A DNA stretch of 64,000 nucleotides, from the IMG/VR virus record IMGVR_UViG_3300032167_000006; one strand, given 5' to 3'. The notes under the pieces were generated by a model. The model worked only from the letters and a program-made list of their open reading frames with translations. It made no database searches and was not told the origin of the DNA. Made by a program: the position numbers and the translations under genes. Below are positions 63,155 through 64,000 of the stretch, in pieces. Position 1 is the stretch's first letter, and each line of letters begins with the position of its first letter. The DNA comes from a virus. Its lineage: Duplodnaviria; Caudoviricetes.

Positions 63155-63454
63155 TCACTCTTTAAATTTATATCCAAATTGTTTTAATGTTTCTTTATGC
63201 CTTAACGGTCTTGCATACCCTTTAGTCCAATCAATAATAAATGTATTTTTACAAATAACACATTTTAAATATTCTACATTTCTTTCAGCAAGAAATTCTT
63301 TTAATTCGTTTGTATCTTGATTAGAATTATATAATTCCTTATAATCTATAATAGAATTATTTCTATTTCTAGTAAAAAATAACATATCATTTCCGCATAT
63401 AGGGCATGTGTAAGGATGTACAATTCTACACATTTCTTTAAGTTCCATTTTCAT
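63155..63454 (-). CDS. Small zinc-binding protein
   Basis: CPIC...CVIC; GGAGG RBS; AACA-N6-TA motif. Confidence 0.7.
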   Translation of the reverse strand: MKMELKEMCRIVHPYTCPICGNDMLFFTRNRNNSIIDYKELYNSNQDTNELKEFLAERNVEYLKCVICKNTFIIDWTKGYARPLRHKETLKQFGYKFKE

Positions 63455-63487
63455 CCCTCCAGTTACTATTTTGTTTGTGAAGGAATG

Positions 63488-63530
63488 AAAAAAAAATAAA
63501 ACTATAAGTAGAGGCTGGCTAGGCCTCTAC
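63488..63530 (-). terminator. Terminator of the tRNA transcript
   Basis: GTAGAGGC...GCCTCTAC stem with a long U-rich tail on the - strand. Confidence 0.75.
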
Positions 63531-63696
63531 TGCAAATATTTTCTATTCTCAAAGAAAGGTCGAAAGAAATAAGAAAATAAATGTGAAGATTTAATTCCTA
63601 CCACTTCATTAAATCTTCTTGCTTTTTGCCTAGGTAGAAGCATAACTACCAAATTTTTCACTTGCAAAATACTTACAGGAGGTCGCAACGTGCAAC

Positions 63697-63772
63697 TGGT
63701 CGGAGTAGAGAGACTTGAACTCCCGACATCTTGTTCCCAAAACAAGCGCGCTACCAACTGCGCTATACCCCG
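63697..63772 (-). tRNA. tRNA-Pro (anticodon UGG), CCA encoded
   Basis: Reverse complement CGGGGTATAGCGCAGTTGGTAGCGCGCTTGTTTTGGGAACAAGATGTCGGGAGTTCAAGTCTCTCTACTCCGACCA folds into a cloverleaf. Confidence 0.97.
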
Positions 63773-63997
63773 AGGATCCCCAGTCATAAGGCAAGTGACT
63801 GGCTCTTGTTGATAATATTAAATATTTAATTTCCCCGTTATATGACTACCAGATTCCTTTTACTCAAAGGGCTTTGTAGTCTAACCATTTTATTATCAAT
63901 AATAGGAAGTATCGTTTCCTATAACCCTGCAAATAATGTTTTGCCTTACATTTATTTGCTCCCAAAATATATCTCTATTCCTAACGATACTAGGGGC
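63773..63997. ncRNA. Candidate structured non-coding RNA with two loop-loop pairings
   Basis: Five or more hairpins; loops TAAGGCAA/TTGCCTTA and GTATCGT/ACGATAC are exact reverse complements. Confidence 0.6.
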
Positions 63998-64000
63998 TGG

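What the first reader, a model, noticed from the sequence alone, without database searches (positions are those of the whole stretch)
63773..64000. Structured non-coding element with two perfect kissing-loop pairs beside tRNA-Pro
Seen: hairpins at 63780-63802, 63844-63881, 63902-63922, 63929-63959 and 63980-63994, plus a long-range stem 63806-63816/63892-63902. Loop TAAGGCAA (63787-63794) is the exact reverse complement of TTGCCTTA (63941-63948), and loop GTATCGT (63909-63915) is the exact reverse complement of loop ACGATAC (63984-63990). Two independent 7-8 bp loop-loop matches in about 225 nt are unlikely by chance. The last three bases (TGG) would read CCA on the - strand, possibly the end of another tRNA, so tRNA processing could release the element. 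Established: ROOL and GOLLD RNAs lie near phage tRNA genes, and phi29 pRNA oligomerises through loop-loop pairing. Inference: a compact pseudoknotted or self-assembling phage RNA. The strand is unresolved: G-U pairs favour +, context favours -.
Basis: partly seen in the sequence, partly recalled or inferred. Interest (0 to 1): 0.78.

Follow-up and report, generated by a model that had tools for sequence, protein, structure and literature searches.

The report
Kissing-loop RNA in phage tRNA array
The 225-base gap between two phage tRNA genes encodes a member of a small, apparently undescribed family of folded RNAs; relatives in four other large phages preserve one of the two proposed loop-loop contacts and a pseudoknot through compensating mutations, but its function is unknown.

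Summary
All five hairpins, the long-range stem and both loop complements are present, and they exceed chance (0 of 400 shuffles show two loop-loop matches of 7 nt or more). The final TGG is the CCA end of tRNA-Asp.

The stretch is the spacer between tRNA-Asp and tRNA-Pro. It lies on the minus strand, in a five-tRNA operon of a jumbo phage.

Neighbouring proteins led to four homologous copies in related phages. These define a new family with three parts:
- **5' module:** three hairpins.
- **Centre:** a variable domain, absent in one relative.
- **3' module:** an H-type pseudoknot whose two helices both covary, ending 6-9 nt before the next tRNA.

No Rfam family matches any copy. A model of the family finds nothing in 39 other phage records, nearly all of them carrying tRNA arrays.

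My best reading is a compact RNA co-transcribed with the tRNAs and released by tRNA-processing enzymes. Its function is unknown, and self-assembly was not tested.

The scan had noted this same stretch once before, in an overlapping window, but not on other DNA.

The parts
63773..63997 (-). Whole element: 225-nt spacer RNA between tRNA-Asp and tRNA-Pro
   Evidence: It has homologues in four other phages.
63998..64000 (-). Encoded CCA end of tRNA-Asp(GTC); the gene continues past the window (L001 1999-2075)
   Evidence: ARAGORN and Rfam tRNA model, 70.1 bits.
63980..63994 (-). Hairpin Ha: 4-bp stem and 7-nt loop (63984-63990), one partner of the conserved kissing loop
   Evidence: The stem is paired in 5 of 5 homologues, with 2 pairs changed on both sides. 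The loop pairs with the Hc loop.
63929..63959 (-). Hairpin Hb: 11-bp stem and 8-nt loop. The position is conserved but the sequence is not. In this phage its loop carries the 8-nt complement to the pseudoknot loop.
   Evidence: Pair probability 0.98. Every homologue has a hairpin at the same place. The loop complement is full only here.
63902..63922 (-). Hairpin Hc: 7-bp stem and 7-nt loop (63909-63915), the other partner of the kissing loop
   Evidence: The stem is 97% paired and 5 of its 7 pairs changed on both sides. For the loop-loop helix, 34 of 35 cells are paired and 3 pairs covary.
63809..63899 (-). Variable central domain: long-range stem (63809-63817 with 63891-63899) enclosing hairpin 63844-63881
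   Evidence: It folds on both strands. It does not align with the relatives and is absent from the 141-nt copy in L068.
63805..63808 (-). Pseudoknot helix S1, 5' strand (CAAG on the RNA)
   Evidence: It pairs with the first four loop bases of hairpin 63780-63802. The helix is paired in 5 of 5 homologues and 3 of its 4 pairs covary (hand-aligned).
63780..63802 (-). Pseudoknot helix S2 (7-bp hairpin). Its loop holds the S1 3' strand (63792-63795) and the C-rich loop L3 (63787-63791).
   Evidence: 97% paired, with 6 of 7 pairs changed on both sides. Pair probability 0.98.
63773..63779 (-). 7-nt tail (contains GGAUCC) between the pseudoknot and the RNase P site of tRNA-Pro
   Evidence: GGAUCC is present in three of the five homologues. 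Its role is inferred only.
63697..63772 (-). tRNA-Pro(TGG), downstream neighbour
   Evidence: ARAGORN and Rfam, 66.6 bits.

Best explanation
The stretch encodes, on the minus strand, a member of a small and so far undescribed family of structured RNAs. The family is embedded in the tRNA arrays of one clade of roughly 260-kb phages.

Shown:
- **5' module.** Three hairpins, in which the 7-nt loops of the first and third form a 7-bp kissing interaction that is maintained by compensatory mutations.
- **Centre.** A variable domain that can be absent.
- **3' module.** A classical H-type pseudoknot: a 4-bp S1, a 1-3 nt L1, a 7-bp S2, no L2, and a C-rich L3. It ends 6-9 nt before the next tRNA gene.

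Inferred:
- The RNA is transcribed as part of the tRNA operon. A promoter-like site lies upstream of the array, there is no terminator inside it, and a terminator follows tRNA-Pro.
- The RNA is cut out by the enzymes that mature the flanking tRNAs: RNase P at its 3' side, and 3'-end maturation of tRNA-Asp at its 5' side.
- The kissing loop near its 5' end and the pseudoknot at its 3' end give it a compact shape that resists nucleases. It would then accumulate as a stable small RNA during infection and act in trans, most likely as a scaffold or decoy for a host or phage protein.

The function itself is not known.
For: **Context.**
- Five co-oriented tRNA genes lie on the minus strand, and the element fills the Asp-Pro gap exactly.
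- No minus-strand terminator lies within the array. One follows tRNA-Pro, and a promoter-like site lies upstream of the array.

**Homologues.** These came from contigs carrying relatives of the adjacent 97-aa protein.
- L063 and L077 have the element in the Asp-to-Pro gap.
- L078 has it after Asp without the tRNA-Pro.
- L068 has it in a Glu-to-Asp gap, as a minimal 141-nt form.
- A covariance model built from three copies, using only the nested hairpins, recovers L068 (47.6 bits, E 2e-6) and L063 (E 1e-3). It recovers nothing else in 410 kb.

**Kissing helix.** This helix was not part of the model used to make the alignment.
- It is 97.1% paired.
- Three pairs (four cells) changed on both sides, and none changed on one side only.
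- 4 of 500 shuffles reach these values. Slid controls give 18-53% paired and no compensation.

**Whole 5' module.** 19 of its 29 pairs carry a double change, and 0 of 500 shuffles reach that.

**Conservation of the loops.** The two loops are 86-100% identical among the three closest copies, while the rest of the module is 54-69% identical.

**Pseudoknot.**
- S2 has 6 of 7 pairs covarying and is 97% paired.
- S1 is paired in 5 of 5 copies, with 3 of 4 pairs covarying.

**Strand.**
- G-U wobbles fall on the tRNA-sense strand 5 times, against 1 A-C cell that would be a wobble on the other strand.
- The sense strand has the lower folding energy in both copies folded on both strands: this window and L063.

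**Independence from tRNA-Pro.** L078 keeps the element although tRNA-Pro is gone, so it is more than a leader for that tRNA.
Against: - There are no expression data.
- There are only five homologues, all from one phage clade, so the covariation statistics rest on few events. The A-U pair shared by L078 and L068 may be a single event.
- The pseudoknot S1 table is hand-aligned.
- On the minus strand the first hairpin has only 4 bp, and RNAfold predicts a competing local fold.
- The trans-acting, nuclease-resistant role is pure inference.
- A purely cis role in tRNA processing fits the position equally well.
- Several relatives of the phage lack the whole tRNA array (L064, L065, L066, L070, L075), so the element is dispensable for the phage type.
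Confidence: 0.6

Rival explanations
1. It is a cis-acting spacer module. The self-contained fold insulates neighbouring tRNAs from misfolding in the polycistronic precursor, and it presents the downstream tRNA leader (6-9 nt after the pseudoknot) to RNase P. The excised RNA is a by-product that is degraded.
For: - The element always fits tightly between a tRNA 3' end and, in 4 of 5 cases, a tRNA 5' end.
- Other spacers of these arrays also hold self-closed structured modules.
- The distance from the pseudoknot to the next tRNA is conserved.
Against: - L078 keeps the element without a downstream tRNA.
- Most tRNAs in these and other phage arrays are only 3-10 nt apart, with no such module, so a module is not needed for processing.
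- Conservation of a specific tertiary contact goes beyond what an insulating hairpin requires.
Confidence: 0.25
2. It is a self-assembling RNA. The complementary loops pair between molecules rather than within one, giving dimers or larger RNA-only assemblies. This would be a miniature analogue of ROOL and GOLLD.
For: - Complementary 7-nt loops can pair in trans as well as in cis.
- This phage has a second 8-nt loop complement, and a palindromic GGAUCC lies in the 3' tail.
- ROOL and GOLLD lie near phage tRNA islands and use kissing loops for assembly (PMC12286853).
Against: - Sequence cannot tell pairing in cis from pairing in trans.
- The second loop pair is not conserved and competes with the pseudoknot.
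- The element is 141-287 nt, far smaller than ROOL or GOLLD, and matches neither model.
Confidence: 0.08
3. It is a self-cleaving or otherwise catalytic RNA that helps to cut the tRNA precursor.
For: Its compact hairpin-plus-pseudoknot architecture, next to processing sites, resembles small ribozymes in general layout (from my own knowledge of pistol and twister folds).
Against: - No ribozyme family in Rfam matches, even at E up to 10.
- No known catalytic core motif was found.
- Apart from the paired loops, few unpaired nucleotides are conserved.
Confidence: 0.04
4. It is a non-functional spacer or a DNA-level element, such as protein-binding inverted repeats or decayed tRNA genes, and the loop matches are chance.
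For: - The spacer is AT-rich and evolves fast.
- The middle of the element is not conserved.
- An 8-nt or 9-nt inverted repeat alone is not rare in 225 nt: a repeat of 9 nt or more appears in 18% of shuffles.
Against: - Compensatory changes occur in four helices and in the loop-loop helix.
- G-U pairs lie on the sense strand.
- No tRNA-like signal appears in the spacer even at E up to 10.
Confidence: 0.03

Closest known systems
Phage T4 RNAC and RNAD (species 1 and 2 RNAs)
   Same: These are small, stable phage RNAs of unknown function that are expressed during infection (PMC9697503). From my own knowledge, they are encoded inside the T4 tRNA gene cluster and released from tRNA precursor transcripts.
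   Different: There is no detectable sequence similarity: the blastn search of the whole array against 50,697 phage records returned only tRNA matches. Whether the T4 RNAs have a kissing loop or pseudoknot was not examined here. The host and phage lineage differ.
ROOL and GOLLD RNAs
   Same: They are phage or prophage non-coding RNAs, often found near tRNA islands. Their function is unknown, and kissing loops are key tertiary and quaternary contacts (PMC12286853).
   Different: They are roughly 500 to more than 800 nt long and form 8- to 14-mer cages. This element is 141-287 nt, matches neither Rfam model, and its oligomeric state is unknown.
Functional RNAs derived from tRNA-operon spacers in E. 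coli (for example the leuZ 3' external transcribed spacer, which acts as an sRNA sponge)
   Different: Those spacers are short, weakly structured and act by linear base-pairing through Hfq. This element is highly structured, and no target is known.
Kissing complexes of fully complementary 7-nt loops (ColE1 RNA I/RNA II, TAR-TAR*)
   Same: Two hairpins whose 7-nt loops are fully complementary (from my own knowledge of these systems). The duplex energy here is -7.0 kcal/mol.
   Different: Those complexes form between two molecules, for antisense control. Here both loops lie in one RNA, 62-70 nt apart.
The three-copy RNA family in the same array (L001 2078-2242, 2291-2423, 3170-3283)
   Same: It is another unclassified structured RNA family, on the same strand of the same tRNA operon, closed by a covarying terminal stem.
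   Different: It is a different family. Its covariance model scores the target at 6.7 bits (E 0.88), which is noise. It is widespread (42 IMG/VR loci), whereas the target family is confined to one clade.

Membership tests
New family defined here (model R2 plus the 3' pseudoknot) | Three hairpins in the order Ha-Hb-Hc. Ha and Hc have 7-nt loops that are mutually complementary and lie 62-70 nt apart. | tested here: met
   Window copy scores 117.7 bits. All five copies have this layout, and 34 of 35 loop-loop cells are paired.
New family defined here (model R2 plus the 3' pseudoknot) | 3' H-type pseudoknot: a 4-bp S1 formed with the first four loop bases of a 7-bp hairpin, and a C-rich L3 | tested here: met
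   The window copy is at 63780-63808.
New family defined here (model R2 plus the 3' pseudoknot) | Lies within a phage tRNA array, on the tRNA strand, directly after a tRNA 3' end | tested here: met
   L063 has an 89-nt hairpin inserted between the tRNA and the element.
New family defined here (model R2 plus the 3' pseudoknot) | Expressed and released as a discrete RNA | not testable with these tools
ROOL (Rfam) / GOLLD (Rfam) | Match to the Rfam covariance model; length of about 500-800 nt or more | tested here: not met
   No match at E up to 10 in the window copy or up to 0.1 in the relatives. Length here is 141-287 nt.
tRNA or tRNA-like element (including decayed tRNA genes) | Cloverleaf detectable by ARAGORN or by the Rfam tRNA model | tested here: not met
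   Only the flanking tRNAs are found, even at E up to 10.
Three-copy array RNA family (model R1) | Conserved core (invariant P2 helix and 19-nt internal loop) detected by model R1 | tested here: not met
   The best score in the target is 6.7 bits, E 0.88. True copies score 78-95 bits.
T4 RNAC/RNAD-type stable RNAs of phage tRNA clusters | Encoded within a phage tRNA cluster, co-oriented with the tRNAs | tested here: met
T4 RNAC/RNAD-type stable RNAs of phage tRNA clusters | Sequence relatedness to the T4 RNAs | tested here: not met
   blastn of the array against the phage collection gave only tRNA matches. No structure-level comparison was made.
T4 RNAC/RNAD-type stable RNAs of phage tRNA clusters | Accumulates as a stable RNA during infection | not testable with these tools
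   No RNA data were available.
Known small self-cleaving ribozymes (hammerhead, twister, pistol, hatchet and others in Rfam) | Match to the family model or core motif | tested here: not met
   No match at E up to 10.

The most novel reading that the evidence does not exclude
The family is a miniature relative, in principle though not in sequence, of the ornate phage RNAs. On this reading the tRNA-processing enzymes release a roughly 140-230 nt RNA whose complementary loops pair between molecules, building defined RNA-only oligomers during infection. The extra 8-nt loop complement that this phage alone has gained would be a second bridge.
Probability: 0.08. Interest if true: 0.85.

Novelty: new variant of a known kind. 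Interest (0 to 1): 0.58.

Why it matters
Phage tRNA clusters have long been known to carry passenger RNAs of unknown function, such as T4 RNAC and RNAD, ROOL and GOLLD.

This element adds a small and tractable example. Its tertiary structure, a kissing loop plus an H-type pseudoknot, is already supported by natural compensatory mutations, and a natural minimal form of 141 nt exists. That makes it a convenient object for structure determination, and for asking what such passengers do: stability, decoy, scaffold or assembly.

The same arrays hold at least three further unclassified structured RNA families. tRNA arrays of large phages may therefore be a rich and under-explored reservoir of non-coding RNAs.

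Tried and rejected
- **Rfam.** Searches at gathering and at permissive thresholds, on the window, on the extended locus and on the relatives, gave only tRNAs.
- **blastn against 50,697 phage records.** Only tRNA matches.
- **Three-copy family.** I suspected by eye that the central hairpin was a diverged copy of the three-copy family in the same array. The family model R1 rejects this (6.7 bits).
- **Exact-pattern scans built on the loop sequences or the flanking tRNAs.** IMG/VR and the JGI metagenomes gave only chance hits in coding DNA, or unrelated arrays.
- **Protein-guided locus searches.**
  - The 903-aa neighbour found one IMG/VR relative with no tRNAs at all, and none in the JGI metagenomes.
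  - An alignment of the 97-aa family found none in IMG/VR.
- **Strains of the same phage.** Five samples carry the element 100% identical, so they tell nothing about covariation.
- **My first reading of L063.** I took its 89-nt 5' hairpin for the equivalent of Hb and concluded that the kissing loops were not conserved. The later homologues and model R2 showed that this hairpin is an insertion and that Ha, Hb and Hc follow it in the usual order.
- **Model R2 on 39 other phage records.** No match. There is one copy only in the window's own genome.
- **Literature searches.** No description of this element was found.

Full report
**1. Where the stretch lies**

The window is bases 17200-81199 of an 82.6-kb IMG/VR virus record. 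I fetched the sequence beyond the window's end as L001. A window position w equals L001 position w minus 61999.

The minus strand carries a tRNA operon in this order:
- tRNA-Leu(TAA)
- a 413-nt spacer
- tRNA-Asn
- an 85-nt spacer
- tRNA-Asn
- two copies of a repeated RNA element
- tRNA-Asp(GTC)
- the 225-nt stretch under study (window 63773-63997)
- tRNA-Pro(TGG)
- a trailer of about 165 nt, then a terminator

A third copy of the repeated element and a promoter-like site precede tRNA-Leu. No minus-strand terminator lies inside the array.

**2. The observation**

The second loop complement extends to 9 nt.

Against dinucleotide shuffles the stretch is clearly enriched in inverted repeats. It has 8 of 7 nt or more, against a mean of 2.4, and 4 of 400 shuffles reach 8. 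No shuffle of 400 gave two loop-loop complements of 7 nt or more.

On the minus strand three hairpins are essentially certain in the ensemble, with open loops: 63780-63802, 63902-63922 and 63929-63959. The 4-bp hairpin at 63980-63994 competes with another local fold.

**3. Known families**

- Rfam 15 gives nothing but tRNAs at any threshold.
- The phage collection gives only tRNA matches.
- The array holds a conspicuous three-copy RNA family. I tested whether the target is a diverged member. That family's conserved motif occurs in 42 IMG/VR loci, and its terminal stem covaries. Its model R1 scores the true copies at 78-95 bits and the target at 6.7 bits. The target is therefore a different RNA.

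**4. Finding relatives**

DNA-pattern scans and searches with the 903-aa neighbour led nowhere.

The 97-aa protein encoded just downstream of the array has 38 relatives in the large protein collection. Their contigs gave three kinds of result:
- **The same phage.** It occurs at 99.9% identity in at least five samples, with the element 100% identical.
- **Relatives without an array.** Several relatives lack any tRNA array at this locus, so the array is an insertion between two conserved genes.
- **Relatives with a homologous element.** There are four:
  - L063 (identical to L074): Asp, a 287-nt spacer, Pro.
  - L077: Asp, a 233-nt spacer, Pro.
  - L078: Asp, the spacer, no tRNA-Pro.
  - L068: a 141-nt spacer between tRNA-Glu and tRNA-Asp.

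L068 was recognised by covariance model R2. That model was built from the window copy, L077 and L078, using the three nested hairpins only. It scores L068 at 47.6 bits (E 2e-6) and L063 at E 1e-3, and it hits nothing else in 410 kb of phage loci.

**5. The conserved architecture**

*5' module.*
- Ha has a 4-5 bp stem and a 7-nt loop.
- About 55 nt follow, holding a hairpin (Hb) whose sequence is free.
- Hc has a 6-7 bp stem and a 7-nt loop.
- Ha is 100% paired, with 2 pairs changed on both sides. Hc is 97% paired, with 5 of its 7 pairs changed on both sides.

*The loop-loop helix.* The two 7-nt loops are complementary in every copy. The pairs are the same in the window copy and L077. One C-G pair becomes A-U in L078 and L068. 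In L063, U-A becomes C-G and G-C becomes A-U, with one terminal mismatch.
- Counted on alignment A8, which was not fitted to this helix, 34 of 35 cells are paired.
- Three pairs (four cells) changed on both sides, and none changed on one side only.
- 4 of 500 shuffles reach these values. Sliding the partner by one to three columns gives 18-53% pairing and no compensation.
- Among the three closest copies the loops are 86-100% identical, while the rest of the module is 54-69% identical.

*Centre.* The part between Hc and the 3' module does not align among the copies and is missing from L068. In this window it is the long-range stem plus the 63844-63881 hairpin. It is a variable insert.

*3' module.* The hairpin at 63780-63802 is conserved, and 6 of its 7 pairs changed on both sides. 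In all five copies the first four bases of its loop pair with four bases that lie 1-3 nt upstream of the hairpin. Three of those four pairs covary. The order is:
- S1 5' strand
- a 1-3 nt linker (L1)
- S2 5' strand
- S1 3' strand, with no gap after the S2 5' strand
- a 3-5 nt C-rich loop (L3)
- S2 3' strand

This is the classical H-type pseudoknot. It ends 6-9 nt before the next tRNA in four copies. In L078 the tRNA is gone but the element remains.

**6. The first loop pair**

The 8-nt complement between the Hb loop and the pseudoknot loop is perfect only in this phage (-10.5 kcal/mol).
- L077 and L078 keep an interrupted 3+4 bp match (-5.6 kcal/mol).
- L068 keeps 4 bp.
- L063 keeps none.

It also uses bases that form S1 and L3 of the pseudoknot, so the two cannot fully coexist.

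By hand comparison, every difference between this phage and L077 in the two loops improves the pairing here. A lineage-specific extra contact, or an alternative state, is therefore possible but unproven.

**7. Strand**

- All homologues lie on the tRNA strand.
- G-U wobbles in the conserved helices fall on the sense strand 5 times, against 1 A-C cell.
- The sense strand has the lower folding energy in both copies folded on both strands.

**8. How it probably works**

Shown: it is a conserved, compact RNA fold on the tRNA strand, with a tertiary loop-loop contact and a pseudoknot.

Inferred:
- It is co-transcribed with the tRNAs.
- It is released by RNase P at its 3' side and by tRNA-Asp 3' maturation at its 5' side.
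- A structured module sits at each end, so it should resist exonucleases and persist.

This resembles what is known of T4 RNAC and RNAD, whose functions are still unknown (PMC9697503). Their location in the T4 tRNA cluster is from my own knowledge.

A purely cis role in precursor folding or RNase P presentation is the main rival. It is weakened by L078, and by the many closely spaced tRNAs elsewhere in these arrays that need no such module.

Intermolecular use of the loops, as in ROOL and GOLLD (PMC12286853), cannot be told from intramolecular use by sequence.

**9. Distribution and novelty**

- Model R2 finds no copy in 39 other phage records, 4.6 Mb in total. Most are records whose fetched loci carry tRNA arrays.
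- It finds one copy only in the window's own genome.
- The family is so far confined to the clade defined by the 97-aa protein. It is absent from Rfam 15, and it was not found in the literature searches.

I class it as a new RNA family within a known kind: passenger RNAs of phage tRNA clusters.

**10. Limits**

- There are only five distinct copies.
- There are no expression data.
- The S1 table is hand-aligned.
- The protein-guided contig look-ups were exhausted, so further copies in public assemblies may exist.

Noticed in passing
L001 2078-2242, 2291-2423, 3170-3283 (minus strand; beyond the window end): Three copies of an unclassified structured RNA. It has a covarying terminal stem, an invariant inner helix and an invariant 19-nt internal loop. 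Its exact 20-nt motif occurs in 42 IMG/VR loci, mostly inside or beside phage tRNA arrays, and several copies have their own sigma-70-like promoter. No Rfam match.
   Followed up: partly
L001 2500-2584 (minus strand): The 85-nt spacer between the two tRNA-Asn genes folds into a closed three-way element with an 11-bp GC-rich hairpin. It holds 2 perfect inverted repeats of 7 nt or more, against 0.1 in shuffles.
   Followed up: no
L068 1827-2162; L077 about 1340-1650; L078 about 1605-1920: A conserved element of about 330 nt in the arrays of relatives. In L068 it is closed by a 17-bp terminal stem, and its internal motifs are shared among the three phages. No Rfam match.
   Followed up: no
L068 2548-2684 and L077 538-667: A further shared inter-tRNA element of about 130 nt with conserved G-rich motifs. 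This may be a fourth RNA family in these arrays.
   Followed up: no
Window 63455-64000 and L001 to 3449, compared with L064, L065, L066, L070, L075: The whole 1.9-kb tRNA array is an insertion between a conserved gene of about 206 aa and the 97-aa gene. Several relatives have the two genes only about 55 nt apart. Others carry arrays of different tRNA content at the same place.
   Followed up: partly
L063 82-170: In this relative an 89-nt hairpin with a 15-bp stem is inserted between tRNA-Asp and the element. Its apical part holds a good sigma-70-like promoter match.
   Followed up: no
L077 1092-1241, L078 1351-1506, L068 2787-2933: A conserved small ORF of 48-51 aa, with its own ribosome-binding site, sits among the tRNA genes of the relatives. 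It is absent from the window's array. In L078 it follows a terminator that replaces tRNA-Pro.
   Followed up: no
Window 63155-63454 (minus strand): The 97-aa protein next to the array has four invariant cysteines in two C-x-x-C pairs. One source names it as an RPC12/RpoP-like zinc ribbon, and it has no Pfam hit. The identical protein occurs on 17 or more contigs, one of them 259 kb long, so the phage is a jumbo phage found in several samples.
   Followed up: partly
L012, L015, L022, L024, L048 (IMG/VR loci carrying the three-copy family): Several of these phage arrays encode suppressor tRNAs with anticodon CTA, which suggests phages that reassign the TAG stop codon.
   Followed up: no
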